From: a virus
Direction: 5' to 3' (one strand)
Length of the DNA stretch: 64,000 bases
Virus record (IMG/VR): IMGVR_UViG_3300045988_073455
Of the stretch, positions 14,337 to 45,201 are shown piece after piece. A program made the position numbers and the translations under genes. Position 1 is the stretch's first letter. Every line of letters starts with the position of its first letter. The notes under the pieces were generated by a model. That model was not told where the DNA came from. It saw nothing but the letters and a program-made list of their open reading frames with translations, and made no database searches.

Positions 14337-14362
14337 TATATAAATCTATAAACAAAAGAGCA

Positions 14363-14683
14363 ATGAAGATGTTACAAGACGTTACAGATTGGTTCAAGGC
14401 TGAAATTCTTGGCGACCAATCATTACAACAGGAAAGAAAGAAACAGAAATCACAGAAAGATTTCGAGAAGCGTATTAATGAAGCAGCTCATCATGTCTGC
14501 CTATCCGATCGTCCTAATGATGATGGGTCTCCATATCCTGTTATCTGCATGGATGGCACCGTTATCTACAAAATCTGCGAGAATCCTCGAATCGAGAAAG
14601 GAGAAATCAGCCTTGAAGATGTAGGGGAAGTTTTGGTAAGACAACGCATTCATTATGCCGAAAACAAGCTGAATTACAGATAG
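14363..14683 (+). CDS. hypothetical protein
   Basis: 106-aa ORF. Start lies within AAAGAGCAATGAAG. Confidence 0.5.
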   Translation: MKMLQDVTDWFKAEILGDQSLQQERKKQKSQKDFEKRINEAAHHVCLSDRPNDDGSPYPVICMDGTVIYKICENPRIEKGEISLEDVGEVLVRQRIHYAENKLNYR

Positions 14684-14738
14684 TTATGCGGTTTAAAAGT
14701 TAAATAAAGTTGCTAAAAAGCGATTAAAGAAAGTAACG

Positions 14739-14770
14739 TTTGGTCAATCCAAAATTTCTTTGTATCTTTG
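14739..14770 (+). promoter_or_regulatory. Bacteroidota-type promoter (TTTG-N20-TATCTTTG)
   Basis: TTTG at 14739-14742 and TATCTTTG at 14763-14770. Confidence 0.55.
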
Positions 14771-14820
14771 CATCAGTTAATTAAACAACAAATAAGTTTA
14801 ACAATTAAATGATAAGAGCA

Positions 14821-15066
14821 ATGAAAAAGGTAAAGTACGTTATTAAGGCAACAAAGTTCAAAGATAACACATACGAAGATGTTGTTTTTGAAAATCAGCC
14901 ACTCAGTCAAAAACAAGAAACATTCAGTGACGTAAAGCACATCTTAGATTTGGATTTCGAGAATGCTTTAGACGAAGGCAAGAAAGTTCAGTATGACGGA
15001 GTAGAGCTTGATATCTTCAATGAAGATGGTACAATTCTTAAAGAATGGATTCAAGACGTAGCATAA
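14821..15066 (+). CDS. hypothetical protein
   Basis: ATG lies within ATAAGAGCAATGAAAAAG. The upstream ATG at 14809 sits inside the motif itself. Confidence 0.5.
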   Translation: MKKVKYVIKATKFKDNTYEDVVFENQPLSQKQETFSDVKHILDLDFENALDEGKKVQYDGVELDIFNEDGTILKEWIQDVA

Positions 15067-15109
15067 AGGTAATGGGGTGACTAACAATCACTCCACAATA
15101 TATAGAGCA

Positions 15110-15274
15110 ATGAAATACGAAGAAACGTTTAAATCCGAAGTAGCTTCAATTGAAGCTATGCTTTACAAAGCAAAACAACGTAGAAAAGAATATGGTGCAT
15201 TGAATGCCATCATATTCATGAAAGGATGGCTTAAAGTTGTCTACGAAGAACTGAACGATTTCACATTGACTTAA
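15110..15274 (+). CDS. small hypothetical protein, paralog of 30706-30867
   Basis: MKYEETFKSE... Start lies within ATAGAGCAATGAAATAC. Confidence 0.5.
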   Translation: MKYEETFKSEVASIEAMLYKAKQRRKEYGALNAIIFMKGWLKVVYEELNDFTLT

Positions 15275-15413
15275 CAAAAGATATGAAACACGTATGTAGT
15301 AATTGCATATCTTCCGATATATGCTATTGTGAAGGCAAGAAGCCTAATGACACTTGCCATCAATGGGAATGGAGATATACAGGTTTATGGTTTGATAATT
15401 AAAAAGTAAGACA

Positions 15414-15707
15414 ATGGGGAAAGAAAAAGTTACAGTAAACGATTTGAAGGTTACACTCTCAGAGCTTGGTGTAACATCTGGCTTGAAGCAGGAAAAGATT
15501 ATTCAACGCCTGCAGGTCAATGGCTGTTTGATTGCAATGGTAACAGATGTATTGGATCAGCTCATCAAGGATGAACAGGGCATGTTTAGGCTGTTAAGCG
15601 TTCGCTACAAGCAAGAGCAGAAGATGCACTACACCCAGATGCAGGATGCAGCCAAAAAGTACTACTTCCATTTGAAACCCTTTAATAAGAGTTTCTTCGG
15701 TGACTAG
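15414..15707 (+). CDS. hypothetical protein (in-frame coding-looking extension beyond TAG to 15854)
   Basis: 97-aa ORF. 48 further sense codons follow the TAG at 15705. Confidence 0.5.
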   Translation: MGKEKVTVNDLKVTLSELGVTSGLKQEKIIQRLQVNGCLIAMVTDVLDQLIKDEQGMFRLLSVRYKQEQKMHYTQMQDAAKKYYFHLKPFNKSFFGD

Positions 15708-15858
15708 AATATTTGCGCCAACCTGGAGGATAACGCAAATGACATCTATGAAATCATCAAGCTTCTTGCGGACCACACTAACGACCACAAGGATATGGAA
15801 GTGATTAAGAGAAACCTCAGAAAGAGAAAGTTGAACCATCATATTTTCGATTAAGATT

Positions 15859-16098
15859 ATGTCAGTATATAAAGCAAACGTAGATTTATCAGACTTATTT
15901 CACGATATGTCTTACAATTATCAGAAAAGCTTCCTTGTTGAAGAGTTCTGTTCTTTACCTATAGAACATCAGGTAAAAGTTGTTGGCGAAATGCTGGAGA
16001 ACCTTAATGGCGATCAGACAGCCAAAGTTATAGAAGACGCTTTTGATAACTTGCATGAGCAAGGTCAAGAGCATGTAATCAACTATGTAAACGGATAA
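15859..16098 (+). CDS. hypothetical protein
   Basis: 79-aa ORF. Confidence 0.5.
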   Translation: MSVYKANVDLSDLFHDMSYNYQKSFLVEEFCSLPIEHQVKVVGEMLENLNGDQTAKVIEDAFDNLHEQGQEHVINYVNG

Positions 16099-16307
16099 AG
16101 ATATGATGTTTGGAGAAATGATTACTCGCAGATGTCTGCTTACTTTTGATGGGGGGGCAAAGATTCAAGCCATCCTCACTATGCCGAAGCCGACAAAACC
16201 CATCTTTCCAAAGGAAATGGAACGTCAGTTCATTAATAGTTTTAATGAATCTCAGCCAAATGCGGTTCACAAGGTTATTAAGTGTCACATAATGAGAAAT
16301 TAATGAT

Positions 16308-17288
16308 ATGGAAAAGAATATTAATTTAGCGAAAATCTTAAATGGTAAACCAGTAAATACGAAGTTGTGGTCTCCCTTATTTGGAGATGTATATACTTCA
16401 AGCATATGCAGCGAAGATACTATAATAGTAGTAAATCACCATGCTGAATCAGCTTCTTTCTATAATAATGGCAAGTACTTTGATCATGCAGAAGCAGAAC
16501 CTCTATTGTTCCCATCTAAAGAAATGCGAGATTGGGGTAAGTTCGCCTGGAAGAAGGGCGATTTGCTTATCAATAGTTGTGGATTTCAGTGCATTTTCAA
16601 AGAATGGGCATCTGGCGATTATACAAAGTTCAACGGATGCTATTCTAATAGCAGGGATGGTTACGAAGACGTAACAAATGCAGAAACAGCTAAGTTTGAC
16701 AAGTTAGATAACAATATTGCCTATGGATATGTCAGAGAGATTGAAAGAAAATTAGGAGGAATATTAAACCTCACCACTTTGGAGATTGAAAAGCAGTATG
16801 AGTTCAAGGATGGAGATATAGCTTTTGCCGACTATGGTAATAGACAAGATGTATTTATTGTATCAGGCAAAACTGGTTTATCAGAAGGTTATAGCTCATT
16901 TATTTCTTTAGATTTAAGTAGTCTAACTTTGAGTATGGCATGCAGAACTAGTTTCTTTAAGAAAGACCTTTGTGAACTTCGCCTTGCCACAGAAGAAGAG
17001 AAAAAACAGCTCTTCTCAGCTCTCGAAAAGAAAGGTAAGGTTTGGGATAGTGAGCATAAAATGATTGTGGACTTACCTAAGAAGTGTGAGTTTAAGCCAT
17101 TCGATAAGGTGTTGGGGCGAAATGAGAAATATGATGTATGGGAAGCTGAACTCTTTTCTCATTATAGAGAAAAATCACAATATCCTTTTCGTTGTATCGG
17201 ATTTGGTCGTAAGTATTGTATTCCTTACAATGAAGAGACAGCACATCTACTAGGAACGACTGATGATTGGGAAGGAGGTGAGCAATGA
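16308..17288 (+). CDS. hypothetical protein
   Basis: 326-aa ORF with no recognised motif. Confidence 0.65.
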   Translation: MEKNINLAKILNGKPVNTKLWSPLFGDVYTSSICSEDTIIVVNHHAESASFYNNGKYFDHAEAEPLLFPSKEMRDWGKFAWKKGDLLINSCGFQCIFKEWASGDYTKFNGCYSNSRDGYEDVTNAETAKFDKLDNNIAYGYVREIERKLGGILNLTTLEIEKQYEFKDGDIAFADYGNRQDVFIVSGKTGLSEGYSSFISLDLSSLTLSMACRTSFFKKDLCELRLATEEEKKQLFSALEKKGKVWDSEHKMIVDLPKKCEFKPFDKVLGRNEKYDVWEAELFSHYREKSQYPFRCIGFGRKYCIPYNEETAHLLGTTDDWEGGEQ

Positions 17289-17611
17289 AAGAATTTAAAG
17301 ATTTGGTAGCTGGTGATGATGTACTAGTTACAGGTAGGTCTTACAGACGTATCGTCAAAATTGATAAAGTGACAAAGACTCAAATTATTGTTAATAACGC
17401 TAGATTCAGAAGAGATTCTGGCTGGCAATGCGGTAGTGATAGATGGAATGTTAGAAGAATATCTGTTCCTACAGAAAAGGAAATATCAGATGTTAAAGAA
17501 GAGAATCTTCGTAAGACTCTCGTCTACGCTATCAGTTCTTTTGATTTCAAACGCTTATCAACAGATGAGTTAAAACAAGTGTACAATATTGTAAAAGGCA
17601 AAGAAAAATGA
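17285..17611 (+). CDS. hypothetical protein
   Basis: 108-aa ORF with ATGA overlap to the upstream gene. Confidence 0.6.
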   Translation: MKEFKDLVAGDDVLVTGRSYRRIVKIDKVTKTQIIVNNARFRRDSGWQCGSDRWNVRRISVPTEKEISDVKEENLRKTLVYAISSFDFKRLSTDELKQVYNIVKGKEK

Positions 17612-19293: not shown

Positions 19294-19327
19294 TTGTTTA
19301 ACGCCTTCTGGCATAAATAGTAGTAAT

Positions 19328-19483
19328 ATGACATCAGAACAAGTAGCAAAAGTATTGAGTTCTCTAGGTAAACGAAAGGTATGCTTTCAGCATGGAGACA
19401 AAGTAGAGATAGTTAAGGGAATCAACGTAACAAATGATAACGTGATTCTGATTAGTGAACTTCCTTCGAGCACAAATAGTTAG
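19328..19483 (+). CDS. small hypothetical protein (51 aa, not in the track)
   Basis: AAATAGTAGTAATATGA start context, shared with 19487 and 19661. Confidence 0.35.
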   Translation: MTSEQVAKVLSSLGKRKVCFQHGDKVEIVKGINVTNDNVILISELPSSTNS

Positions 19484-19486
19484 AAT

Positions 19487-19630
19487 ATGAAACATATTAA
19501 GTTTACAATAGATATAACATTGTCTCCTGATAAAGAGTTCCTTACGAAGGAAGACTTTGTGGAGGCAGTATATACATGTTATGGAAACATTAGAGATGTT
19601 GCTCCTGATACAATAATAAAGATTGATTAA
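19487..19630 (+). CDS. small hypothetical protein (47 aa, not in the track)
   Basis: AAATAGTTAGAATATGA start context. Confidence 0.35.
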   Translation: MKHIKFTIDITLSPDKEFLTKEDFVEAVYTCYGNIRDVAPDTIIKID

Positions 19631-19660
19631 CCATCCGCAAGGATATAAATAGATAGTAAT

Positions 19661-19876
19661 ATGAATACAGAAAAATTAGAAAGAGCAAATATCTTAGCAA
19701 AGAGTTTAATTCCTAAAGTAAATGAACTCTTAAATATATCTCCAAAATCAATGCGTAGTAGTCTTGCTGATGCTATTTGTTGGCTTTCAGAGTGTGATGA
19801 AGAGTTTAAAACAAAATTCAAGCAGCTTCTGAATGAAACAAAACAGAGATTTCAGAAAGAGTTTGATGATTTGTAA
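19661..19876 (+). CDS. hypothetical protein
   Basis: 71-aa ORF with AAATAGATAGTAATATGA start context. Confidence 0.5.
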   Translation: MNTEKLERANILAKSLIPKVNELLNISPKSMRSSLADAICWLSECDEEFKTKFKQLLNETKQRFQKEFDDL

Positions 19877-20124
19877 CTAACCACCCTCTCCTTGGTGAAA
19901 TTAAGATAATAACGAAAAAGCCGTGCTCGAATTAGATTGGTTGGCATTAGGTGTAGCCGTAAAATATCAATTACCGCTTGACAATTCACCTCAGAGCACT
20001 CTTATGTGGAAAAGGCATCAAGCATTTAGTACACATCGAAGAACGTTAATGAGTGAAAGGCTCATAAAGACTCCAATCCGTTATTATTTTGATAACATCA
20101 TGGAGAGGGTAAAAAGATTAGAAT

Positions 20125-20448
20125 ATGGCAGAGATTATTTATTTTGGAACGAATGGATGTTCCTGTTATTGTCCTATCGGCATCGACAAAGTGCTGACCT
20201 CGGCAGAATATGGAATGTGGTGCGAATGCGATAATGAAACTTGGATAAATAATATCCGAAAGAATCCTGGTCGCCATCTCATCAAGCATCACGGAGAGGT
20301 TTATACTAATTATGGTGTTCCGTTCTCTGTAGATGTTGACAGAGGTGGTAGTCATACCGAACTATTTTGGAAAGGCATTCATTCGGAAGAAGAAATTGTC
20401 AACTTGATAAAGAATAATCAGTTTTTGGCAAGGCAATTTAAAAAGTAG
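20125..20448 (+). CDS. hypothetical protein
   Basis: 107-aa ORF. Confidence 0.5.
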   Translation: MAEIIYFGTNGCSCYCPIGIDKVLTSAEYGMWCECDNETWINNIRKNPGRHLIKHHGEVYTNYGVPFSVDVDRGGSHTELFWKGIHSEEEIVNLIKNNQFLARQFKK

Positions 20449-20647
20449 GAGGAATAGTCATAAGTGATAGTTATATATATTATGGAAGTGATGGCTCGTA
20501 TCATATAATACGCCCGATAGGAGAAGGATTTGATATAGAGACAGCTTTCTTAATAGCCTTGGTGATTGTTGCTATATACGTCATGTTTCATTATTCCCCA
20601 AAGGAAGTTTGGAATAAAATAAAGTCGTATTTTAAAGAATTATAGTT

Positions 20648-20749
20648 ATGGTTGGATTTTATGTTATTCTTACCATAGCTATTCTATATATAGCTTTTGT
20701 GGGCGGAGTTATCGGTTATTTAATTGGTAAATATTGGAAAAAGAAATAG
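20648..20749 (+). CDS. 33-aa single-pass membrane peptide (not in the track)
   Basis: MVGFYVILTIAILYIAFVGGVIGYLIGKYWKKK. Its stop is part of the TAGCGTATG junction. Confidence 0.35.
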   Translation: MVGFYVILTIAILYIAFVGGVIGYLIGKYWKKK

Positions 20750-23578: not shown

Positions 23579-23619
23579 CACTATCAAAAATAAATAATAA
23601 CAATTAAAAGATAAGAGCA

Positions 23620-23886
23620 ATGAAACAGACAATAAACGTATCAAACAAAGCTGAGGTTGTAGCAGTAGTTACAAGTGATTTTGATGGAGGTTATAACTAT
23701 TTCGAAGGTGACATTCGTAAGGGTAATCTTAGAGCTCATGTAATTAACTACTTCCAAGGTAACAAGTTGAGAATCCAGATTACCTATTGGGAGGATGGCA
23801 AAAGTGTGGCAGTTGAAACCGCTTCAACATGTTCAACAGCAAAGGGAATTGTTAGTAAGGTTTCTAAATTCTTAGATATTAAGTAA
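23620..23886 (+). CDS. hypothetical protein
   Basis: 88-aa ORF with the ATAAGAGCAATGAAAC start. Confidence 0.55.
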   Translation: MKQTINVSNKAEVVAVVTSDFDGGYNYFEGDIRKGNLRAHVINYFQGNKLRIQITYWEDGKSVAVETASTCSTAKGIVSKVSKFLDIK

Positions 23887-23937
23887 ATAAAAAGGTAACG
23901 GCTGGTCCAACCAACTAGTCACAATAAGAGCAATGAA

Positions 23938-24415: not shown

Positions 24416-24440
24416 TAACTGCATATAAAAAGTAAGAGCA

Positions 24441-25460
24441 ATGAAGACAGACAACGTTTTAGAGCATTTCGCTGAAATGATGATTTCACGAATGCAAAAG
24501 ATGAAGGCAGGAGATTGGAAGATGGGTTGGTTCACCACATCTTATGGTGGTAACCCAGTGAACCTTGGAGGGCGTGAATATAATGGAATGAACTCATTCT
24601 TCCTGTTCCTCTGCATGATGGACGAAGAAAGATTCAAATATCCTATCTTTGCTACCTTCAATCAGATAAAGGCATTAGGAGCTAGTGTGAACAAAGGAGA
24701 GAAAAGCTTCCCTGTTCTGTTTTGGTCCATTCAGTACAAAGACAAGAATGGAAACAAAATAACAGAAGACAGCTACAATGGAATGACTCGATCAGCCCAA
24801 CTAGACTGCAAAGTCCAGCCTTTCTTGAAGAGCTACAACGTGTTCAATCTCAGCCAAACCAACCTCGAAGAGATAGCACCTAAGACGATGCAGAAGTTGA
24901 AGGAGAAGTTCAGTCTCAAAGATAAGGATGAGTTGCCGACAGACACGGCTGGTATGTACGTCAACGAGAAAATTGATGATATGCTTCTTTATCAGAAGTG
25001 GCTCTGCCCTATCCGCTACGACAAGTATTCAAGTGGAGCTTTTTACAGATTTGGGGTAGATGATATTACAACACCACTTAAAAGTCAGTTCAAGAAGGGC
25101 AATACAGAGCAGGAGATATTCGAGGATGGACAGGAGTACTACTCAACCCTTCTACATGAAATGGTTCACTCAACAGGGCATAAGTCTAGATTGAATAGAG
25201 GGTTTGAGAATGAGAAAGGAGAAAAGGACTATGCAAGAGAAGAGTTGGTTGCAGAGCTTGGAGCAGCTCTTATCGGAAACGTCCTAGGCTTTAGCAGTCG
25301 CATTTTAGATAATAACGCTGCTTACCTAGATGGTTGGATCAGCAAGCTTAAAAAGCAACCAAAGTTCATCGTTTCTGTTTTGACAGACGTAAACAAGGCA
25401 GCTAAAATGGTATTAGAAATCGTGAACAAAGAAAAGGCACAATTACTAATGCCTGCATAA
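24441..25460 (+). CDS. ardC: ArdC-like antirestriction protein (N-terminal ssDNA-binding domain plus zincin metallopeptidase)
   Basis: NGMNSFFL and FATFNQIKALGASVNKGEKSFPVLFW match the ArdC-N/DUF1738 pattern. HEMVHSTGH (HExxH) and YAREELVAELGAAL are also present. Confidence 0.85.
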   Translation: MKTDNVLEHFAEMMISRMQKMKAGDWKMGWFTTSYGGNPVNLGGREYNGMNSFFLFLCMMDEERFKYPIFATFNQIKALGASVNKGEKSFPVLFWSIQYKDKNGNKITEDSYNGMTRSAQLDCKVQPFLKSYNVFNLSQTNLEEIAPKTMQKLKEKFSLKDKDELPTDTAGMYVNEKIDDMLLYQKWLCPIRYDKYSSGAFYRFGVDDITTPLKSQFKKGNTEQEIFEDGQEYYSTLLHEMVHSTGHKSRLNRGFENEKGEKDYAREELVAELGAALIGNVLGFSSRILDNNAAYLDGWISKLKKQPKFIVSVLTDVNKAAKMVLEIVNKEKAQLLMPA

Positions 25461-25482
25461 GATATTTTATTGCTCTATCTAA

Positions 25483-25518
25483 GGCGGTATAAGCGGATTT
25501 GCTTGTATCGCCTTTATT
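25483..25518 (+). terminator. terminator hairpin after ardC
   Basis: GGCGGTATA (25483-25491) pairs with TGTATCGCC (25504-25512), followed by TTTATT. Confidence 0.5.
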
Positions 25519-30666: not shown

Positions 30667-30705
30667 CACTATCAAAATAAAAATAACAATTAAAAGATAA
30701 GAGCA

Positions 30706-30867
30706 ATGAAATACGAAGAAACGTTTAAACAACAAATGGTAGTAATTGAAGCCATGGTAGAAAAGACCAAAAAGGCGAAGGAAGAGAACTGCGACCTTTA
30801 TGCTCTCATTTACATGAGGGGATGGCTTAAAGGAATTGTAGATGATTTGGATAAGATTATCCCTTAA
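30706..30867 (+). CDS. small hypothetical protein (53 aa, not in the track), paralog of 15110-15274
   Basis: MKYEETFKQQ...MRGWLKGIVDDL aligns with MKYEETFKSE...MKGWLKVVYEEL. The minus-strand track ORF 30658..30912 is rejected in its favour. Confidence 0.5.
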   Translation: MKYEETFKQQMVVIEAMVEKTKKAKEENCDLYALIYMRGWLKGIVDDLDKIIP

Positions 30868-31296: not shown

Positions 31297-31343
31297 GAAG
31301 GAAATGGTAGGGCTAACCACCCTACCTCAATACGATAAGAGCA

Positions 31344-32507
31344 ATGAATACGATAAAGACGTTTATTCCATCAGAGTCAGTTGACGCATTTAAGAAGTTC
31401 GCTGAGAAGACAAAGCGCAATGTAGAAGGTTTCGACTACACCATTAGTAACCCACGAAAAAAGTTATTCCGTCATGCGGTAGTAGAAGATTGTCAAACCA
31501 TCATTGGGAAGTATTGGCATGACATCTGTGACCTCACCATCAATATGCCAGACGAAAGTAATTGGAGATTGCTGGCCACATATAAGAATGGAGCCTTTAC
31601 TCCTGCTGATACAACCAAGGAGTTGGTATTCAAGATTAAGGAGCATGGAGCTGATTACGGCAAATGCGACCTATGTGGTCATTGGTGTAACAACGCATAC
31701 GTAATCGAGAATACGCAAACTGGCGATGAACTGCAAGTAGGTTGCGAGTGCATAAAAAAGTTCGGATTGAAGTACATTGACTTCCTCTCAGACTTTACAC
31801 GCAAACTTTATGAGACCTACGACCACACCATCAGATATGCCACCGATGATGACTATGGAGACCTTATTCCAATTTGGGGTGGTCCTAAGGATAGTAGATA
31901 TACGGATGCCATCTTGAAGAATGACATGATCGCCATGTGCAAGGCTCAGTATGACGAGTGCCCTGTTTACAAGAAAGGCTATTACGCAAATGGTCACTAT
32001 TACCCATCAGAAACAATCGCCAAATTAGAGGAAATAAGAGATTCTAAGAAGTTTACGGTTGACTCCTCATACATAACAAAGGTCTGCGATTTTGCGCTCT
32101 CTAAAGAGCCTAAATCGCAATTCGAGGTTGAAATGCAGAAAGTAGCAAATGACTACTACACATTCTCGGAGCAGTTCGTTTATGCTTTCTTCCTGGTGAA
32201 GAACTACGAGGATAGCTTAAAAGGTGGTATTGATGCCATCAAGAAAGGTATGCAAGTCAAGGTAGTCGGTAAAGTCATTCAACAGCGCACAGAGCAGTCT
32301 TACTACGGAGAAATGGTCACAAACACCATCCTTACTAAAAACGGAATAGTCTGTGAAAGGGTTGGCAAAATACCAACTGCACAAAAAGATGGCGAGAAGA
32401 CCACCGAGTTCTATGCTATCGTCAAGGGTTTGTTCAATGGAAAGGTTTGCCTAGACAGAGCTACTAAGAATCCAAAGAAAGGAATTGAAGTGGCTATGGA
32501 GATTTAG
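31344..32507 (+). CDS. hypothetical protein with a Zn-ribbon-like CxxC...CxC motif
   Basis: 387 aa with CDLCGHWC...GCEC. Start lies within ATAAGAGCAATGAATAC. Confidence 0.65.
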   Translation: MNTIKTFIPSESVDAFKKFAEKTKRNVEGFDYTISNPRKKLFRHAVVEDCQTIIGKYWHDICDLTINMPDESNWRLLATYKNGAFTPADTTKELVFKIKEHGADYGKCDLCGHWCNNAYVIENTQTGDELQVGCECIKKFGLKYIDFLSDFTRKLYETYDHTIRYATDDDYGDLIPIWGGPKDSRYTDAILKNDMIAMCKAQYDECPVYKKGYYANGHYYPSETIAKLEEIRDSKKFTVDSSYITKVCDFALSKEPKSQFEVEMQKVANDYYTFSEQFVYAFFLVKNYEDSLKGGIDAIKKGMQVKVVGKVIQQRTEQSYYGEMVTNTILTKNGIVCERVGKIPTAQKDGEKTTEFYAIVKGLFNGKVCLDRATKNPKKGIEVAMEI

Positions 32508-33289: not shown

Positions 33290-33300
33290 AAGTTAGAGCA

Positions 33301-33849
33301 ATGGAACAGAAGTTATTAGATTTGATTATCCATATAGGACAAGTTAGAGGTTGGGCTGTAGATGCTACAGATAATGGCAATGACTTTGCCTACATCTTCT
33401 TTCAGCGTTATTCTCCTGCTGGTCAAGATTTCAACATGTCAATCGAAATGCCAAACAATGACCCGAATGAGTTTTTGAAGAACCTCGATGATTACTACGA
33501 GAACTTCGATCCAGATAGTGAAGCCCTAAACCGGTGTGACAAAGAAGGTCATGGTATAAATGGAGCACCCAAACGCTTGAAGGATATCATCATTGATTTC
33601 GAGGAAATCGAAAAGGAAATCAAAGAACTCCTAGAAGTGTTCAATCTTCAAATAGAGGAACTAGAGAAAGCTGCCATTCACAAGGTTAAAGTGCAAGTCA
33701 CCGAATACCTGCAAAAGGTAGTGGAGGTTGATGCCATCAATGGCAGTGACGCATGCGATAAAGTCGAAGAAATGGTTAATGGATCAGAAATCATCTTGAC
33801 AGCAGACGATTTCACAACAAGAAACATTGAGCCTTATGAAGATAAGTAA
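33301..33849 (+). CDS. acidic hypothetical protein
   Basis: 182-aa ORF. Start lies within TTAGAGCAATGGAA. Confidence 0.6.
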   Translation: MEQKLLDLIIHIGQVRGWAVDATDNGNDFAYIFFQRYSPAGQDFNMSIEMPNNDPNEFLKNLDDYYENFDPDSEALNRCDKEGHGINGAPKRLKDIIIDFEEIEKEIKELLEVFNLQIEELEKAAIHKVKVQVTEYLQKVVEVDAINGSDACDKVEEMVNGSEIILTADDFTTRNIEPYEDK

Positions 33850-34087: not shown

Positions 34088-34197
34088 GTTAGCAAAAAGT
34101 ACTTTATGCTCAAAACGTTTGGTCATTTGCAAAAAAATGATTACCTTTGCACTATCAAAAATAAATAATAACAATTAAAAGATAAGAGCAATGAAAC
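34056..34197 (+). repeat. 142-bp direct repeat, copy 1 (gene 3' end + promoter + leader + ATGAAAC)
   Basis: Near-identical to 43682-43829, with one substitution and small indels in the A-rich leader. Confidence 0.85.
34118..34149 (+). promoter_or_regulatory. Bacteroidota-type promoter (TTTG-N20-TACCTTTG)
   Basis: TTTG at 34118-34121 and TACCTTTG at 34142-34149. Confidence 0.6.
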
Positions 34198-34469: not shown

Positions 34470-34481
34470 AATATAAGAGCA

Positions 34482-34826
34482 ATGAAACTGATTACGAAAG
34501 AAATTAAGAAGAGACTGGAAAAATATCCTCTCTACTCGCAGGATGGTAAAAAGGAAGAAGCCATCTGTCAAGCAAAGTTCTTCCTTTGTGTTGGTGCATG
34601 GTCTTGGTTCATATTGGAAGCAGACCTAGAGAACAATATCGCCTACGGAATCACTATCAATGGAAGTGGTGAAGGCGAGTACGGCTACACAAGCTTAACC
34701 GAGTTGCAGGGGCTAACAACTAAGTTAGGCTTAACCGTAGAGCGAGACACCTCATTCTCCCCTACTCCACTAAAGGATATTAATAACGAATATCTAAAGA
34801 AGTTTCTTAAGAAAATGTACGCTTGA
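34482..34826 (+). CDS. DUF2958-like protein
   Basis: LYSQDGKKEEAICQAKFF...WSWFILEAD...GEYGYTSLTELQ matches my recollection of DUF2958. Confidence 0.65.
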   Translation: MKLITKEIKKRLEKYPLYSQDGKKEEAICQAKFFLCVGAWSWFILEADLENNIAYGITINGSGEGEYGYTSLTELQGLTTKLGLTVERDTSFSPTPLKDINNEYLKKFLKKMYA

Positions 34827-35541: not shown

Positions 35542-35569
35542 TATTTTTGTAGAATTAAAATAAAAGAGC

Positions 35570-36637
35570 ATGAAAATAGCAGTTATAGGAACGGGCAACG
35601 TGGGAGTAGCTTTTGCCGCAGACCTCTCTATTAAAGGTCATGAAGTTACACTCCTAAAGACATCTTCATACAAATCAGATGCCTTTGATAGACTTATCAA
35701 GAACGGCAAAAGGGTTTTTCTTAAAGAGAAATCAACTTATATAGAAACTGCAATCAAAGAGGTTTCTAAAGACCTCAGTAAGGTTGCAGAAGCAGAAGTT
35801 ATATTTTGTACTATTCAGAGTAACTTCTATGAGGGTCTAGTAGAACGTATACATCAATACCTTCACAATGATCAGATTGTTGTCTGTATCTCTAGTTACG
35901 CATCCTCTTTCTATTTTGAGAAACATTGCAGAAAACTACCAATGTTAGTTGAAGCAACAGGTCCATATTTGGAAGGACGAGTAGAGTTGGATGATAAACC
36001 AAACGAAGTTGTTTTTCGTGTTGGTTATAGGCATGAAGTTATTCCTGTAGCATGCTTTTCTAATCATGATACCTGCATGGAGAAACTGCATAAAATTAGC
36101 AAAGGTTTTATAGCAAAATATTGCGTGCTTGAATCTGCATTACTCAATCCAAATATGGTGTTGCATACGGTAGGTTCAATTATGAGTATTCCGAGAATAG
36201 AATATTCAAAGGGAAATTTCTGTATGTATCGTGAAGCATACGCAAGAGGAAATGACTCCACCATCAATCTATTGATGAGACTTGACGAAGAAAAGATGAA
36301 AGTCTTAAAAAGCTTGGGCTTTTTCAAAACAAGCGTATTTGAAGCAGGAGGTTTTAATATGTCAGACCCAATAGAGAGTTTGCATCGTTACTCAGAATCT
36401 AGTGATAGAGCCATCAGCCCAACATCTGTTCACTCACGTTACATCACAGAAGACGTTTCAGAGGGATTGGTACTGATGGAGAGTATTGCACTTCATATAG
36501 GCTTAGAGTTACCAGTTACATCATCCCTCATTACGCTTGCAAGTGTAGCTTTAGGAATAGACTTCCGTAAGACAGGAAGAACTATTCAGAGATTAGGTAT
36601 TATTAACGAAATAGATATGCTTCATGAATGTAGATAG
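35570..36637 (+). CDS. NAD(P)-dependent opine (octopine/nopaline) dehydrogenase-family protein
   Basis: Rossmann motif MKIAVIGTGNVG. LLNPNMVLHTVGSI...FCMYREAY...LDEEKMKVLKSLGF and RYITEDVSEGLV fit the Octopine_DH C-domain pattern. Confidence 0.7.
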   Translation: MKIAVIGTGNVGVAFAADLSIKGHEVTLLKTSSYKSDAFDRLIKNGKRVFLKEKSTYIETAIKEVSKDLSKVAEAEVIFCTIQSNFYEGLVERIHQYLHNDQIVVCISSYASSFYFEKHCRKLPMLVEATGPYLEGRVELDDKPNEVVFRVGYRHEVIPVACFSNHDTCMEKLHKISKGFIAKYCVLESALLNPNMVLHTVGSIMSIPRIEYSKGNFCMYREAYARGNDSTINLLMRLDEEKMKVLKSLGFFKTSVFEAGGFNMSDPIESLHRYSESSDRAISPTSVHSRYITEDVSEGLVLMESIALHIGLELPVTSSLITLASVALGIDFRKTGRTIQRLGIINEIDMLHECR

Positions 36638-41927: not shown

Positions 41928-43442
41928 ATGTCAGAACAGAAAGCAATAAAAAAAATGATTGCATGGCGCAATGATTGGTGTCTCTTCGCTAAGGAAGTCT
42001 TGAAGGCTCGCCTTGACGAAGAGCAAAAGGCTATATTGCGTTCTGTTCAAAAGAACAAAATGACAACGGTAGCCAGTGGAACTGCAAGGGGTAAGGACTT
42101 CATCGCTGCCGTAGCCGCTTTATGTTTTCTATACCTCACTCCTCGCTTCGGCAAGGATGGTAGTTTAGAAAAGAACACCAAGATTGCCCTTACAGCACCA
42201 ACAGGAAGACAGGTAACAAACATCATGATACCAGAAGTGGCACGTCTTTACAAAAAGGCAGGCTTCCTGCCTGGTCGTTTGCTGTCGGATGGCATCAGAA
42301 CTGATTATGAGGAATGGTATCTGACAGGTTTCAAATCTTCAGCCGACAACACAGAGGCTTGGTCGGGATTCCATGCTGTAAACACCATGTTCATCGTAAC
42401 AGAAGCATCCGGTATCTCGGACACCATCTATAATGCAATCGAGGGTAACCTGCAAGGTAACTCTCGATTGCTATTGGTATTCAACCCAAACGTTACTACA
42501 GGGTATGCAGCCAACTCCATGAAGTCTCCCAGATTCAAGAAGTTTAGATTATCATCTCTCAACGCAGAGAACGTAGTAAGCAAGAAAAACATTATCCCTG
42601 GTCAAGTTGACTATGAATGGGTATCCGATAAGGTCTCAGCATGGGCACAGAAGATCAGAAAGTCTGAGTTTGATGAAGGTCGTGGTGATTTTGTGTGGGA
42701 AGGTGGATATTACACTCCAAATGACCTTTTTCGTGTTAAGGTTCTCGGTATGTTTCCGAAGGTGTCCGAAGATACCCTCATTCCATACGAATGGTGCGAG
42801 ATTGCCCATAGAAGATGGAAGGAACTTAAAGATAGTGGCTTTATCACCCATAAGCCAATACGCTTAGGTGTCGATGTCGCAGGTATGGGTCGCGATAGGT
42901 CTTGCTATGTTCCACGACAAGGAAATTATGTTTCAGAAATCAAGTGTCATAATTCGGGTGGTCATGCGGACCACATGGCAGTCGCAGGTCAAGTCGCACA
43001 CTACCTAAGTTTGAGTTCAAAGAATAAAGCATTCATTGATACCATTGGAGAAGGTGCTGGAGTTTATTCAAGACTCATAGAGCAAAAGTATTTAACTGCA
43101 TTCTCTTGCAAGTTCTCGGAAGGCGTGAGAAACAAGCATGATGTGACAGGCTGCTACTCTTTCGCTAACATGAGGGCTTATCTGTTTTGGTGCATACGTG
43201 ACTGGCTCAACCCAAAGAATGGATTCTTTGCAGCACTCCCACCTGACGATGAGTTGGATCAAGAATTGTGCGAAGTGCATTGGCTGTTTCAGTCAGATGG
43301 TTCAATCATCATGGAACCAAAAGACGAAATCAAGAAGCGTCTGAAACGTTCTCCCGACAAGATGGATGCCCTTGCCAACACCTTCTATCCATACGACTTC
43401 GATAGAGACAATGATTTGCAATTGTTAAATAGTATAGTATAA
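41928..43442 (+). CDS. terL: terminase large subunit
   Basis: 504 aa with the P-loop-like VASGTARGKDF and Walker-B-like MFIVTEASG. Synteny with terS. Confidence 0.75.
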   Translation: MSEQKAIKKMIAWRNDWCLFAKEVLKARLDEEQKAILRSVQKNKMTTVASGTARGKDFIAAVAALCFLYLTPRFGKDGSLEKNTKIALTAPTGRQVTNIMIPEVARLYKKAGFLPGRLLSDGIRTDYEEWYLTGFKSSADNTEAWSGFHAVNTMFIVTEASGISDTIYNAIEGNLQGNSRLLLVFNPNVTTGYAANSMKSPRFKKFRLSSLNAENVVSKKNIIPGQVDYEWVSDKVSAWAQKIRKSEFDEGRGDFVWEGGYYTPNDLFRVKVLGMFPKVSEDTLIPYEWCEIAHRRWKELKDSGFITHKPIRLGVDVAGMGRDRSCYVPRQGNYVSEIKCHNSGGHADHMAVAGQVAHYLSLSSKNKAFIDTIGEGAGVYSRLIEQKYLTAFSCKFSEGVRNKHDVTGCYSFANMRAYLFWCIRDWLNPKNGFFAALPPDDELDQELCEVHWLFQSDGSIIMEPKDEIKKRLKRSPDKMDALANTFYPYDFDRDNDLQLLNSIV

Positions 43443-43480
43443 ATTTGCAAGATACAGAAAAGTTTTGTAACTTTGCAGCC

Positions 43481-43547
43481 GAAACGTTACCTTTAACGTT
43501 TCATTGCTCTTAGTGCACTCCGACCGTGAGGTTAGAGTGCATTTTTT
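43481..43547 (+). ncRNA. candidate small RNA or 3'-UTR element carrying an antisense copy of the phage start motif
   Basis: Possible promoter TTTG (43444) -N20- TAACTTTG (43468-43475). 5' hairpin AAACGTTA/TAACGTTT (43482-43501), exposed CATTGCTCTTAG (43502-43513), and terminator TGCACTC/GAGTGCA (43514-43541) plus T6. Confidence 0.35.
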
Positions 43548-43681
43548 ATTTAATATAAAGTAATTCAGAAAAAGACTATACACTTCAATATAAGCCTTTC
43601 TAAGCGGTTCATTTTTTATCTCCATATAACTTATACCATTTTTAAGAAATAGACTTACATACACAAAATTAATAGTTTGAC

Positions 43682-43829
43682 ATAAGTATCTGAATAACAA
43701 TAAGTTAAACTAAGTTAGCAAAAAGTACTTTATGCTCAAAACATTTGGTCATTTGCAAAAAAATGATTACCTTTGCACTATCAAAAATAAAATAACAATT
43801 TAAAAGATAGGAGATAAGAGCAATGAAAC
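43682..43829 (+). repeat. direct repeat, copy 2 (includes a 32-nt relic of the 3' end of gene 33827-34087)
   Basis: See 34056-34197. Confidence 0.85.
43744..43775 (+). promoter_or_regulatory. Bacteroidota-type promoter (TTTG-N20-TACCTTTG)
   Basis: TTTG at 43744-43747 and TACCTTTG at 43768-43775. Confidence 0.6.
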
Positions 43830-44236
43830 TAATTGGAATGGAAACGTCAGATTATAACGAAACACGTTATATACAATGTGAGACAATGGAAGAATACAAC
43901 GATGTTTTGAAACGTGAAAAGAGTAAACACGGAATTAAAAATGGTGCAGATGTTACCACTTACGTTTACGAAACATCAAATTCTTCAAAAGTTGCAGGAA
44001 AAGTCATTAATACAAACCTTGAAGTTGAAATCTACTATACTGGCGCAAAATTTCGTGAACTCTATGCAAAACCATCTACAAATCCAGAAATAGATAGAGA
44101 AGTAAAAGCTCATGAGGTGTATGGAGGCTGCGGCATAATCACATATAAGGAGAAAGGTATCTCAAAACAATACTATGGTGTTGGGCATAAAACATTCAAC
44201 ACCAAGAAAGAAGCGAAAAAATATATTGATGAGTAA
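43823..44236 (+). CDS. hypothetical protein
   Basis: 137-aa ORF with the motif start. Confidence 0.6.
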   Translation: MKLIGMETSDYNETRYIQCETMEEYNDVLKREKSKHGIKNGADVTTYVYETSNSSKVAGKVINTNLEVEIYYTGAKFRELYAKPSTNPEIDREVKAHEVYGGCGIITYKEKGISKQYYGVGHKTFNTKKEAKKYIDE

Positions 44237-44252
44237 TTAAAAGATAAGAGCA

Positions 44253-44471
44253 ATGAACGTTTACACAGAATCAGATAGATATACGGTATTACTTCACGCA
44301 TTCGACACTTTTGAAGGTGCTTGTGAGTATATAACTCAAATTATAAATGTATGGGAGTGTAAGGTTCTCCCCCTCATAAAAGCATGGAATGACGGTGTGG
44401 TTACAGCTAAATGGATGGCTAAGAAAACCGAAAAAGGAATAAAATTTGAATTGTTGGATAGCAATGTTTAA
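44253..44471 (+). CDS. hypothetical protein
   Basis: 72-aa ORF with the motif start. Confidence 0.55.
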   Translation: MNVYTESDRYTVLLHAFDTFEGACEYITQIINVWECKVLPLIKAWNDGVVTAKWMAKKTEKGIKFELLDSNV

Positions 44472-44486
44472 TAGGAGGAAACGGAT

Positions 44487-44678
44487 ATGACAGTATATGA
44501 ATTATCGGAACTTCAGAAAGAAGAACTCAAAACCGAAATATTGAAAGATAAGTTTGTTGGGTACAAACTTTCATTCAGAGAGTTAGCATGTGCTAATGAT
44601 TGCATCAGCGACCGAGAGTTGTTCGAAAAATTCAAGGACCAGACCTTTACGGATAATGACTTCATCGTATCACGCTAA
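44487..44678 (+). CDS. hypothetical protein
   Basis: 63-aa ORF preceded by AGGAGGAAACGGATATG, a rare SD-like site. Confidence 0.5.
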   Translation: MTVYELSELQKEELKTEILKDKFVGYKLSFRELACANDCISDRELFEKFKDQTFTDNDFIVSR

Positions 44679-44688
44679 ATGGAATCGT

Positions 44689-45009
44689 ATGGAATGCAAT
44701 TGCACAACAATAGAAGAGCTTAAATCCGTAACCACGCAGATTAGTGGTGATGAATGGAAAGATTTCTTCTCACTCATCAAAAAAGGCTCATATAGCCTTT
44801 ATGGTTTCCACCAGTTTCTTGATGAGAGACCAGACCTATGCTTATTAATTCAAGGTATAGGAGATTACCAAACTGCCATTAAAGCTACGTTAGACGAAAT
44901 CGGATTGAATGATGGTGATATAAATGGACCAGGAGGAAATCATCTTAAATTGATTGTGGCGGATCAGATAGGATTCATAGTATATGAAACTAAAGTTATG
45001 AACTTTTAA
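44689..45009 (+). CDS. hypothetical protein
   Basis: Internal ATG (MECNCTT...) of track ORF 44590..45009, located after the upstream stop. Confidence 0.5.
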   Translation: MECNCTTIEELKSVTTQISGDEWKDFFSLIKKGSYSLYGFHQFLDERPDLCLLIQGIGDYQTAIKATLDEIGLNDGDINGPGGNHLKLIVADQIGFIVYETKVMNF

Positions 45010-45024
45010 AAATAAGATAGAGCA

Positions 45025-45201
45025 ATGGAAGAGAACGTTATCATAGCAATGGATGCCGAAAAGTCTAAAAAGATAAAAGGCATTCCTTCAAGTTGGGACT
45101 GGGAAGATATTCATTTCTACCTCATTACTGAATTGGGATTCAATTTTGATGTTGTGTTCAATTATTCAAAAGACATAGAGGAGGTATCTTATGAAGGATA
45201 A
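45025..45201 (+). CDS. small hypothetical protein (58 aa, not in the track)
   Basis: ATAGAGCAATGGAA start. Overlaps the radC-like start by 11 nt. Confidence 0.45.
   Translation: MEENVIIAMDAEKSKKIKGIPSSWDWEDIHFYLITELGFNFDVVFNYSKDIEEVSYEG

What the first reader, a model, noticed from the sequence alone, without database searches (positions are those of the whole stretch)
14355..45030. Start-codon-overlapping motif (T/A)AAGAGCAATG(A/G)A shared by about 17 genes across the early and accessory regions
The sequence AGAGCAATG(A/G)A, usually preceded by TA/AA, includes the initiation ATG of the following genes:
- + strand genes starting at 6105, 14363, 14821, 15110, 23620, 24441, 30706, 31344, 33301, 34191, 34482, 43823, 44253 and 45025.
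- The minus-strand gene 104-1159 (ATG at 1159).
- A reduced form at 35570 (AAGAGCATG) and at 46216 (AGCAATGAA).

The motif also occurs at 23926-23938 (its ATG at 23933), 5 nt out of frame with the apparent start at 23938. Two further internal copies (GCACTAAGAGCAATAA) lie at 1344 and 1390.

This is much longer and more specific than the A-rich, SD-less initiation regions typical of Bacteroidota. It is confined to some gene blocks; the structural genes and the 17.7-22.7 kb block lack it. The pattern resembles a post-transcriptional regulon operator, as with T4 RegA binding sites that overlap the start codons of many early mRNAs. It could also be a target for the antisense elements described separately.
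Basis: seen in the sequence. Interest (0 to 1): 0.65.

Follow-up and report, generated by a model that had tools for sequence, protein, structure and literature searches.

The report
Start-codon tag matched by phage antisense RNAs
A 13-base tag overlapping the start codon of about 17 accessory genes in an uncultured human-gut phage is the exact mirror image of an exposed stretch in two small structured RNAs encoded by the same phage, so the phage probably switches this whole gene set off together by RNA-RNA pairing.

Summary
In detail: AGAGCAATGRA occurs 16 times against 0.12 expected. In 14 of these copies the ATG starts a real gene (15 gene starts carry the 9-nt core AGAGCAATG). The genes are unrelated to each other. 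In relatives the tag precedes at least 63 unrelated protein families. The A-rich flank fits the generic Bacteroidota start context; the invariant G(-5), G(-3), C(-2) core does not.

The two minus-strand copies are the key. On the + strand each is the reverse complement of the tag, inside a short promoter-to-terminator unit:
- sRNA-1 (~43480-43550): hairpin, free seed UUCAUUGCUCUUA, terminator.
- sRNA-2 (~46092-46195): leader of the late operon, seed in an apical loop.

In relatives their stems change by compensatory substitutions while the seeds stay fixed. Tag and seeds co-occur: 71 of 71 close loci against 0 of 9 distant ones. Where the sRNA-1 base facing target position +6 changed from U to A, the tagged genes lost their A at +6 (p about 0.04). 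Two conserved ATG-less copies (1344, 1389) keep 15 nt of sRNA-1 complementarity.

Best reading (about 0.55): an RNA-based counterpart of the T4 RegA regulon. The tag is also the junction where gene cassettes are swapped. No expression data exist. The closest pattern analogue is the unexplained SAS motif of Cluster K mycobacteriophages.

The parts
1155..1167 (-). Tag at the start of the HSDR_N nuclease-like gene 104-1159 (gtgTAGAGCAATGGAA). Its upstream GGTG matches sRNA-2.
   Evidence: duplex -22.4 kcal/mol with sRNA-2
1344..1359 (+). ATG-less copy GCACTAAGAGCAATAA in the 5'UTR of the small membrane-protein gene (ATG 1382). It has a 15-nt Watson-Crick match to sRNA-1.
1389..1404 (+). Second ATG-less copy, in codons 3-8 of gene 1382-1633. 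It has a 15-nt match to sRNA-1.
6097..6109 (+). Tag at the AAA_24 gene start (gcacTAAGAGCAATGAG). 16-nt match to sRNA-1. Its TAA is the stop codon of the upstream LuxR-type gene.
14355..14367 (+). Tag at gene 14363-14683.
14813..14825 (+). Tag at gene 14821-15066, the first gene behind the class-I promoter at 14763.
15102..15114 (+). Tag at gene 15110-15274.
17277..17289 (+). Near-tag (GAGCAATGAAA) at the start of the Phage_ProQ_C_like gene.
23612..23624 (+). Tag at gene 23620-23886, behind the class-I promoter at 23571.
23925..23937 (+). Tag whose ATG opens a 3-codon mini-ORF overlapping the real ATG at 23938. The arrangement is conserved in 28 relatives.
24433..24445 (+). Tag at the ArdC-like anti-restriction gene.
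30698..30710 (+). Tag at gene 30706-30867, behind the class-I promoter at 30659.
31336..31348 (+). Tag at gene 31344-32507.
33293..33305 (+). Tag (TTAGAGCAATGGAA sub-variant) at the DpnD/PcfM gene.
34183..34195 (+). Tag at gene 34191-34469, behind the class-I promoter at 34142. 16-nt match to sRNA-1.
34474..34486 (+). Tag at the DUF2958 gene.
35562..35574 (+). Reduced tag (AAAGAGCATG) at the octopine-DH-like gene.
43815..43827 (+). Tag at gene 43823-44236, behind the class-I promoter at 43768.
44245..44257 (+). Tag at gene 44253-44471.
45017..45029 (+). Tag (ATAGAGCAATGGAA sub-variant) at gene 45025-45201.
46208..46220 (+). Reduced tag (AAGCAATGAA) at the first late-operon gene, 75 nt downstream of the sRNA-2 seed.
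43444..43550 (+). Candidate sRNA-1 gene. -33 TTTG at 43444; -7 TAACTTTG at 43468-43475; RNA ~43480-43550 with a 5' hairpin, the seed TTCATTGCTCTTA (43500-43512), then a terminator hairpin and T6.
46022..46195 (+). Candidate sRNA-2, the late-operon leader. Shared upstream element at 46022-46074; -7 TATATTTG at 46078-46085; RNA ~46092-46195; seed CATTGCTCTTA (46132-46142) in an apical loop; terminator 46159-46187 plus T6.
   Evidence: (D8)
25465..25514 (+). Possible third antisense element: TTTTATTGCTCTATCT in the 3'UTR of the ArdC-like gene, followed by the terminator at 25481-25514. Weaker evidence.

Best explanation
The motif is an RNA-level address tag. Any mRNA whose start codon sits inside UAAGAGCAAUGAA can pair with the exposed seed of two phage-encoded small RNAs. 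sRNA-1 is a ~70-nt promoter-to-terminator unit just downstream of the large-terminase gene. sRNA-2 is the ~100-nt terminated leader of the late structural operon. The duplex covers positions -8 to +6, so it would block 30S binding and repress translation of about 17 accessory and early genes together. That makes it an RNA counterpart of the T4 RegA regulon.

Shown by sequence analysis: the tag, the complementary seeds, the RNA structures, and their conservation, covariation and co-occurrence.

Inferred: that the RNAs are made, that pairing occurs, that the effect is repression, and that the timing is late. The timing inference rests on sRNA-2 sharing its promoter upstream element with the portal-gene promoter.

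The A-rich part of the tag (-14 to -11, -6, +4 to +6) also serves as an ordinary good Bacteroidota start context. Because every tagged gene shares this sequence, the tag also serves as the joint at which gene cassettes are exchanged between phages.
For: 1. Enrichment and phasing. There are 16 copies against 0.12 expected. In all 14 sense gene-start copies the ATG is the start codon.
2. Unrelated genes. There is no paralogy, and the tag precedes 63 unrelated families in relatives.
3. The only two minus-strand copies each lie in a short + strand unit with a Bacteroidota -33/-7 promoter and an intrinsic terminator.
4. sRNA-1 folds as hairpin, free seed, terminator (-27.9 kcal/mol, z -6.4). sRNA-2 shows its seed in an apical loop (z -3.4).
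5. sRNA-1 has 22 variants. 94% of cells are paired against 23-44% when partners are slid; 5 pairs show double compensatory changes; 0 of 500 shuffles reach the observed score. The seed is invariant except for two C-to-U changes, which still pair with G by wobble.
6. sRNA-2 homologues at 70-80% identity keep UCAUUGCUC while the rest of the loop changes and the stem covaries.
7. Duplex energies are bimodal: 17 starts at -17 to -29 kcal/mol, with a median of -9 for the rest.
8. In the one-per-family logo the information lies at -8 to +6, matching the sRNA-1 complement. G-5, G-3 and C-2 are not explained by generic start rules.
9. Sites 1344, 1389 and 6105 extend 7-8 nt further into sRNA-1-specific sequence (GCAC). 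Two of them have no ATG and are conserved.
10. Lineage test. Where the sRNA-1 base facing +6 is U, tagged genes have A at +6 (22 of 29 families). Where it is A, T rises to 6 of 14 families (Fisher p about 0.04). Non-motif genes show no such shift.
11. Co-occurrence. All 71 loci with at least 92% terminase identity have the tag plus sRNA-1. All 9 loci at 85% or less have 0-2 tag hits and no intact seed.
12. The minus-strand ORF across sRNA-1 is broken in about half of the loci, so coding does not explain the conservation.
Against: - There is no transcript evidence of any kind. Promoters and terminators are predictions.
- The seed never changes together with the core of the tag, so classical compensatory covariation is missing. 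The +6 result is marginal (p about 0.04) and rests on one evolutionary change in the sRNA.
- Co-occurrence comes from about two clades, so it is confounded by phylogeny.
- Natural variants lack the sRNA-2 seed (L179, a 6-nt deletion; L152, G to C) yet keep the tags.
- L188 keeps an sRNA-1 homologue with a drifted seed and has no tagged genes within 10 kb either side.
- In the variant lineage, position -8 is often A although sRNA-1 keeps A opposite it.
- The -15 to -9 consensus TAAAAGA is not complementary to either RNA.
- Pairing at +4 to +6 needs the base of hairpin 1 to open.
- From my own knowledge, Bacteroidota lack Hfq and ProQ. The only candidate helper, a ProQ_C-like protein at 17285, rests on a Pfam match just above threshold.
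Confidence: 0.55

Rival explanations
1. The tag is the operator of a sequence-specific RNA-binding protein, phage or host encoded, acting as a RegA-like translational repressor or activator. The antisense copies are incidental.
For: The tag overlaps the AUG of a subset of non-structural genes, as RegA operators do. ATG-less copies also fit an operator. The phage encodes a Phage_ProQ_C_like protein and several HTH proteins of unknown role.
Against: No RegA, CsrA or Hfq family was found in the 98 proteins scanned. A protein operator does not explain why the exact complement is the conserved, exposed part of two structured RNAs. It also does not explain why +6 shifts with the sRNA-1 base.
Confidence: 0.12
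2. The tag is simply an optimal ribosome-loading sequence for strong translation in an SD-blind Bacteroidota host, with no dedicated regulator.
For: The A-run at -14 to -11, A at -6 and the A-rich second codon match the known positive determinants. The phase with the ATG is fixed.
Against: G-5, G-3 and C-2 carry the most information and are not favourable determinants; -3 is G rather than A. The highly expressed structural genes lack the tag. Conserved copies without an ATG exist. The +6 preference differs between two sister lineages that presumably share host-type ribosomes. This reading does not explain the conserved antisense seeds.
Confidence: 0.1
3. The tag is primarily a recombination linker: a microhomology at which gene cassettes are swapped, as with the T4-type PeSL cassettes. 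It is kept by hitch-hiking rather than by a role in expression.
For: The same gene (over 90% protein identity) is found behind more than 10 unrelated upstream contexts. Pairwise identity is 0.97-1.0 from -6 inward, then falls to about 0.8 by -9 to -14 and about 0.55 further upstream. A 60-110-nt promoter/5'UTR cassette ending in the tag is repeated in front of many different families.
Against: Thirteen nucleotides is short for homologous exchange. A pure linker need not include the ATG in fixed register, need not be near-invariant, and does not predict antisense RNAs. I regard this as a consequence of the shared regulatory tag rather than an alternative to it.
Confidence: 0.08
4. The tag is a DNA site for a DNA-binding regulator, like the asymmetric multi-copy stoperators of Cluster A mycobacteriophages, acting on transcription.
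For: It is asymmetric, has about 17 copies, and sits in one orientation relative to transcription. HTH and LuxR-type proteins are present.
Against: The strict register with the start codon is not needed for a DNA site. No immunity repressor or integrase was recognised. The two reverse copies lie in the unpaired parts of covarying RNA hairpins.
Confidence: 0.08
5. The sRNA-2 seed acts only in cis. The leader loop UCAUUGCU pairs with the AGCAAUGA start of the first late gene, 75 nt downstream, on read-through transcripts. It is unrelated to the other tagged genes.
For: The 8-nt complementarity between the leader loop and the first late-gene start is kept in both lineages.
Against: This does not account for sRNA-1, or for the 15 or more other tagged genes. 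It is compatible with the main model as an extra function.
Confidence: 0.05

Closest known systems
Start-Associated Sequences (SAS/ESAS) of Cluster K mycobacteriophages (Pope et al. 2011, PMC3203893)
   Same: Both are 13-nt asymmetric motifs present in 11-19 copies, in one orientation, and confined to non-structural genes of unrelated families. Both are absent from other genomes. In both, about half of the copies carry an extended upstream version containing a promoter (ESAS, PMC11373665; here the class-I promoter cassette). Both have a single reverse-orientation copy not at a gene start. SAS function is still unknown (PMC12699233, 2025).
   Different: SAS lies 3-7 nt upstream of the start and contains an SD core (GGGATAGGAGCCC). 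Here the tag overlaps the ATG, has no SD, and has an unrelated sequence. The host phyla differ. No antisense RNA partner has been proposed for SAS.
T4 RegA translational repressor regulon (own knowledge)
   Same: Many early mRNAs share an operator overlapping the AUG and are shut off together after the early phase.
   Different: RegA is a protein with a loose AU-rich operator. Here no RegA homologue exists, the operator is a sharp 13-mer, and the likely effector is RNA.
Phage antisense immunity RNAs: P1/P7 c4 and P4 CI (own knowledge)
   Same: A small structured phage RNA shows loop or linker sequences complementary to short sequences repeated in the phage's own transcripts. c4 occludes a ribosome-binding site.
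   Different: Those RNAs act on one or two sites in a single operon. Here the RNAs would act on about 17 dispersed genes and more than 60 gene families. Rfam found no match at gathering thresholds to any described RNA family.
Trans-acting seed-type sRNAs such as RybB and GcvB, and Bacteroides GibS (own knowledge)
   Same: A conserved single-stranded seed next to a terminator hairpin pairs at the translation initiation regions of many mRNAs.
   Different: Cellular regulons use short, imperfect and heterogeneous target sites. Here all targets carry one identical tag locked to the start codon, and both regulator and targets belong to the phage.
PeSL mobile regulatory cassettes of T4-type phages (Arbiol et al. 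2010; own knowledge)
   Same: Repeated promoter-containing cassettes flank variable accessory ORFs and mark mosaic junctions.
   Different: PeSLs are early promoters plus stem-loops with no start-codon tag and no antisense partner.

Membership tests
Trans-acting base-pairing sRNA regulon | A discrete small transcript with its own promoter and intrinsic terminator | tested here: inconclusive
   -33/-7 Bacteroidota boxes and a hairpin plus T-run are present and conserved. Expression cannot be tested with these tools.
Trans-acting base-pairing sRNA regulon | Conserved RNA secondary structure with an exposed, conserved seed | tested here: met
   94% of cells paired, 5 compensated pairs, slid controls 23-44%, seed invariant. 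The sRNA-2 loop seed is kept at 70-80% identity.
Trans-acting base-pairing sRNA regulon | Seed complementary to the initiation regions of several mRNAs | tested here: met
   Watson-Crick runs of 9-16 nt at 19 sites. 17 starts give -17 to -29 kcal/mol against a median of -9.
Trans-acting base-pairing sRNA regulon | Seed and targets change together | tested here: inconclusive
   The core never varies. The only seed changes are C to U, which is G.U compatible. The +6 shift follows the sRNA-1 change at p about 0.04. The shift at -8 does not follow it.
Trans-acting base-pairing sRNA regulon | Regulation of the targets demonstrated | not testable with these tools
   Needs reporters and RNA analysis.
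T4 RegA-type regulon | A RegA-family (Translat_reg) protein is encoded | tested here: not met
   No such Pfam family in 98 proteins.
T4 RegA-type regulon | An operator overlapping the AUG of many non-late mRNAs | tested here: met
Cluster K SAS | Consensus GGGATAGGAGCCC with an SD core, 3-7 nt upstream of the start | tested here: not met
   The tag is TAAGAGCAATGAA and includes the ATG.
Cluster K SAS | Multi-copy, one orientation, non-structural genes of unrelated families, with an extended promoter-bearing form | tested here: met
   PMC3203893 and PMC11373665
P1 c4 / other described phage antisense RNAs | Match to the described RNA family model | tested here: not met
   Rfam 15 at gathering thresholds gave only tRNA hits.
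Stoperator-type DNA sites | A cognate immunity repressor in a temperate phage | tested here: inconclusive
   No integrase or recognisable repressor in the window and no prophage copies. However, about 4 kb of the genome lies outside the window.
PeSL-type mobile regulatory cassettes | Repeated promoter cassette at mosaic junctions of accessory ORFs | tested here: met
   The stem-loop component was not found.

The most novel reading that the evidence does not exclude
A phage-wide plug-and-play address system. Any gene that acquires the 13-nt start-codon tag is automatically placed under one or two master antisense RNAs made from late-class promoters, giving a global early-to-late translational shut-off without a protein repressor. 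Because the tag is also the recombination joint, newly captured accessory genes arrive already wired into the circuit. The same logic may explain the SAS motif of Cluster K mycobacteriophages, unexplained for 15 years: their single reverse SAS copy sits in the apical loop of a conserved, covarying hairpin in a gene-free region.
Probability: 0.35. Interest if true: 0.85.

Novelty: new variant of a known kind. Interest (0 to 1): 0.72.

Why it matters
If true, this would be the first phage-internal sRNA regulon defined by a uniform start-codon tag.

It would show how an SD-blind phylum that lacks Hfq and ProQ can still run global post-transcriptional control. It would also explain how highly mosaic accessory regions stay coordinately regulated while genes are constantly swapped.

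It provides a compact, portable 13-nt tag plus ~70-nt RNA pair that could be tested as a translational switch in Bacteroides. It also turns the unresolved function of start-associated sequences in mycobacteriophages into a concrete, testable hypothesis, namely an antisense loop RNA.

Tried and rejected
- **Paralogy of the tagged genes:** rejected. Only 15110/30706 are related.
- **Protein coding as the cause of sRNA-1 conservation:** rejected. The 66-codon minus ORF at 43425-43625 is broken in about half of the loci.
- **A matching anti-motif for the second start-context class** (TAGCGTATG, in the 19.3-22.7 kb block and at 4720-): none found.
- **Known RNA families:** Rfam gave only tRNAs.
- **Prophage and host identification with the 19-mer in 185,579 genomes:** 30 scattered singletons, which is background level.
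- **Core seed/tag covariation in divergent relatives:** L188, L183, L184, L189 and L190 simply lack tagged genes. The L002 fragment holds only one tagged gene.
- **RegA, CsrA, Hfq or integrase:** none found.
- **Structure of the ProQ_C-like protein:** the single-sequence AlphaFold model is unusable (pLDDT 46), and there was no PDB sequence match. I ran no further search on this side issue.
- **SAS/anti-SAS covariation in mycobacteriophage Ekdilam:** negative. The SAS is standard while the loop is altered.
- **Metagenome scan:** not used. The viral scans already showed the seeds to be invariant, so more copies would add little.

Full report
**1. The observation**

AGAGCAATGRA occurs 16 times in the 64-kb window, against 0.12 expected from dinucleotide-preserving shuffles. 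Fifteen real genes start with the ATG of AGAGCAATG: 1159(-), 6105, 14363, 14821, 15110, 23620, 24441, 30706, 31344, 33301, 34191, 34482, 43823, 44253 and 45025.

One further copy, at 23933, opens a 3-codon mini-ORF overlapping the true ATG at 23938. Reduced forms lie at 35570 and 46216, and a near-copy at 17285. Two ATG-less copies (GCACTAAGAGCAATAA) lie at 1344 and 1389. Structural genes lack the motif. The 19.3-22.7 kb block has a different recurrent start context...TAGCGTATG.

**2. What the genome is**

The window comes from an uncultured human-gut tailed phage (97.9% identical over part of its length to MT836221). It encodes portal (25635), head morphogenesis (27589), large terminase (41928), major capsid (47422) and tape-measure proteins. 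Its promoters are of the Bacteroidota -33 TTTG / -7 TAnnTTTG type.

The nearest cultured relatives by capsid protein are Cellulophaga and Riemerella phages at 25-27% identity. No integrase was found. No prophage copy exists in 185,579 species-representative genomes, so nothing supports lysogeny.

The tagged genes sit in accessory islands between the packaging and structural genes. They encode unrelated products: ArdC-like anti-restriction, AAA_24, DpnD/PcfM, DUF2958, an HSDR_N nuclease and many unknowns. Only 15110 and 30706 are paralogues.

**3. Distribution in relatives**

The extended 19-mer AAAAGATAAGAGCAATGAA hit at least 117 stretches of gut viral contigs before the scan reached its limit. 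Those 867 kb hold 431 core motifs, 351 of them followed by an ORF of at least 40 codons. With all loci pooled, the tag precedes 63 unrelated protein families.

In a logo built from one site per family, the information lies at -8 to +6 (TAAGAGCAATGAAA), with a weaker A-run at -14 to -11. Baez et al. (PMC6847099) showed that Bacteroidota initiation favours A at -3, -6, -12 and -13, with G and C depleted. That accounts for the A-rich flanks. It does not account for the invariant G-5, G-3 and C-2.

**4. The antisense partners**

The only two minus-strand copies are not gene starts. Read on the + strand, each is the reverse complement of the tag inside a short promoter-to-terminator unit.

- sRNA-1: -33 TTTG at 43444 and TAACTTTG at 43468, with the RNA at about 43480-43550. 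It folds as a 9-bp hairpin, a free AUUGCUCUU linker and a terminator with U6 (-27.9 kcal/mol, z -6.4).
- sRNA-2: TATATTTG at 46078, with the RNA at about 46092-46195. It is the terminated leader of the late structural operon. It presents CAUUGCUC in an apical loop (z -3.4). Its promoter shares a 53-nt upstream element with the promoters of the portal gene and of gene 34906 (repeat D8).

Rfam has no family for either RNA.

**5. Conservation of the RNAs**

sRNA-1 has 22 sequence variants in relatives. On a register-correct alignment, 94% of cells pair, against 23-44% when partners are slid. Five pairs show double compensatory changes, and none of 500 shuffles reaches the observed covariation score. 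Hairpin 1 exists in four compensated versions.

The seed CATTGCTCTTAGTGC is invariant except for C-to-U changes in L107 and L188. These would still pair with the tag's G residues by wobble.

sRNA-2 homologues at 70-80% identity keep UCAUUGCUC, while the rest of the loop changes and the stem covaries. Two rare variants have lost it (L179, a 6-nt deletion; L152, G to C).

A 66-codon minus-strand ORF crosses sRNA-1, but it is broken in about half of the loci. Protein coding therefore does not explain the conservation.

**6. Evidence that pairing is what matters**

(a) Duplex energies with the sRNA-1 seed are bimodal: 17 gene starts give -17 to -29 kcal/mol, and the rest have a median of -9.

(b) Sites 6105, 1344 and 1389 extend the match 7-8 nt into sRNA-1-specific sequence (GCAC) rather than following the general AAGA consensus. 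Sites 1344 and 1389 have no ATG, are conserved, and flank the start of a small membrane-protein gene. Gene 1159(-) extends instead into sRNA-2-specific GGTG.

(c) Among loci chosen only by terminase homology, all 71 with at least 92% identity have 2-8 tagged starts plus sRNA-1. All 9 with 85% or less have 0-2 tag hits and no intact seed. This amounts to about two clades, so it is confounded by phylogeny.

(d) In the lineage where the sRNA-1 base facing +6 changed from U to A (L167-171, L180 and three others), tagged genes lose their strong A at +6 and T rises. A falls from 22 of 29 families to 6 of 14, and T rises from 3 of 29 to 6 of 14 (Fisher p about 0.04). Non-motif genes show no comparable shift. 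A ribosome-preference explanation does not predict a lineage-specific change.

**7. The tag as a mosaic junction**

I took orthologues by protein homology alone. The same gene, at over 90% identity, is found behind more than ten unrelated upstream contexts. Pairwise identity is 0.97-1.0 from -6 inward. It falls to about 0.8 across -9 to -14 and to about 0.55 further upstream.

Five promoters of one class (14763, 23571, 30659, 34142, 43768) carry a common 5'UTR ending in the tag. In relatives, this cassette fronts about 25 different families.

So the tag is also where cassettes are exchanged. I regard this as a consequence of a shared regulatory sequence, as with T4-type PeSL cassettes, rather than as its reason for existing.

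**8. Mechanism proposed**

The sRNAs pair across -8 to +6 of tagged mRNAs, occlude the start codon and repress translation of the accessory set together. The late-class promoter of sRNA-2 suggests this happens when late transcription begins. That would make it an RNA counterpart of T4 RegA.

Shown: the sequences, structures, conservation, co-occurrence and partial covariation. Inferred: expression, pairing in vivo, the direction of the effect and the timing. I put confidence at about 0.55.

Weak points:
- There are no transcript data.
- There is no covariation in the core.
- The sRNA-2 seed has been lost naturally in a few genomes.
- L188 keeps a drifted sRNA-1 without nearby targets.
- The -8 shift in the variant lineage is not matched by sRNA-1.
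- Pairing at +4 to +6 needs partial opening of hairpin 1.

**9. Rivals**

- A RegA-like protein operator: no RegA, CsrA or Hfq family in 98 proteins.
- A pure optimal start context: contradicted by the G/C core, by the absence of the tag from structural genes, by the ATG-less copies and by the lineage shift.
- A pure recombination linker.
- A DNA-level stoperator-like site.
- A cis-only role for the sRNA-2 loop on the first late gene.

None of these explains the conserved exposed antisense seeds.

**10. Comparison with known systems**

The closest pattern analogue is the Start-Associated Sequence of Cluster K mycobacteriophages (PMC3203893). It is a 13-nt asymmetric motif in 11-19 copies, confined to non-structural genes of unrelated families. 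It has an extended form containing a promoter (PMC11373665). Its function was still unknown in 2025 (PMC12699233). The tag here is not a member of that family: the sequence is different, it overlaps the ATG and it has no SD core.

By mechanism the system resembles seed-type trans-acting sRNAs and the phage antisense immunity RNAs P1 c4 and P4 CI. It differs in having one uniform tag on many dispersed genes. Literature searches found no description of such a phage sRNA regulon.

**11. A lead outside the window**

The SAS paper notes one reverse-orientation SAS copy per K1 genome. In Anaya it lies in a 385-nt gene-free gap, in the apical loop of a GC-rich hairpin. The region is conserved in 138 Cluster K phages. 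An alignment of seven of them gives two hairpins with nine compensated pairs, and the anti-SAS loop is kept in five of the seven.

Ekdilam has an altered loop but standard SAS copies, so that covariation test failed. This remains a lead, not a finding.

Noticed in passing
window 17285-17611 (+): A 108-aa protein matches Pfam Phage_ProQ_C_like (PF24203; 30.1 bits against a cutoff of 27; full-length profile). Its own start is an SD-like GGAGG followed by a near-tag, GAGCAATGAAA. It is a possible phage RNA-duplexing helper in a phylum without Hfq or ProQ.
   Followed up: partly
window 25465-25514 (+): The 3'UTR of the ArdC-like gene reads TTTTATTGCTCTATCT just before its terminator. It is complementary over 16 positions (2 of them G.U) to the start of gene 45025 (AGATAGAGCAATGGAA). 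That start belongs to the TAGAGCAATGG sub-variant, which pairs least well with sRNA-1 and sRNA-2. It is a possible third, 3'UTR-derived antisense RNA. It is identical in all close relatives, so conservation is uninformative.
   Followed up: partly
window 19322-22720 (+) and 4720 (-): A second, different recurrent start context (aaaTAGyTAGCGTATGAA and TAGTAATATG) is shared by about 10 small genes of the 19.3-22.7 kb block. No antisense partner was found in the window.
   Followed up: partly
window 25553-25605, 34824-34876, 46022-46074: A 53-nt upstream element (..CTATTTGTTGATTAAATA..) is shared by the promoters of the portal gene, the DUF488 gene and the late operon. It is probably the binding region of a late activator. 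A LuxR/sigma-r4-like protein is encoded at 5539-6099.
   Followed up: no
window 3375-3420 (+): Another very short promoter-to-terminator unit (TATGTTTG, then the hairpin TCCCTCA..TGAGGGA, then T6) sits at the edge of the iteron region. Its loop contains CATTGTCT, which resembles the seed only loosely.
   Followed up: no
window 3446-3848: An iteron-like array: a 122-nt unit repeated twice at 99% identity, and five copies of CTAACACACTGCCAACACAC. It is probably a replication origin or an operator array.
   Followed up: no
window 35389-35541 and 51010-51117: Two adjacent tRNA-Gly genes with anticodons ACC and CCC (ARAGORN). Rfam additionally reports a 108-nt tRNA-like hit at 51010-51117 that ARAGORN does not call and that overlaps ORF 51054-51860.
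   Followed up: partly
window 23397-23434 and 43590-43627 (- strand): A conserved segment (rc ATATGGAGA..CTTAGAAAGGCTTAT) lies upstream of two class-I promoters. It starts a 13-codon ORF at one site and a 66-codon ORF at the other. It is probably a divergent regulatory element or micro-ORF rather than a conserved protein.
   Followed up: partly
L316 35790-35960 (Mycobacterium phage Anaya JF704106 59789-59959): The single reverse-orientation SAS copy of Cluster K mycobacteriophages lies in the apical loop of a covarying hairpin, in a gene-free region conserved in 138 phages. It may be an anti-SAS RNA. Ekdilam has an altered loop but standard SAS copies, so covariation was not confirmed.
   Followed up: partly
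L188, L183, L184 (contigs IMGVR_UViG_3300045988_113792, _141804, _121875): Some IMG/VR UViGs contain two different terminase genes (for example 99% and 85% identical to the window's). They therefore look like concatenations of two related phage genomes, which calls for caution in per-contig counts.
   Followed up: no
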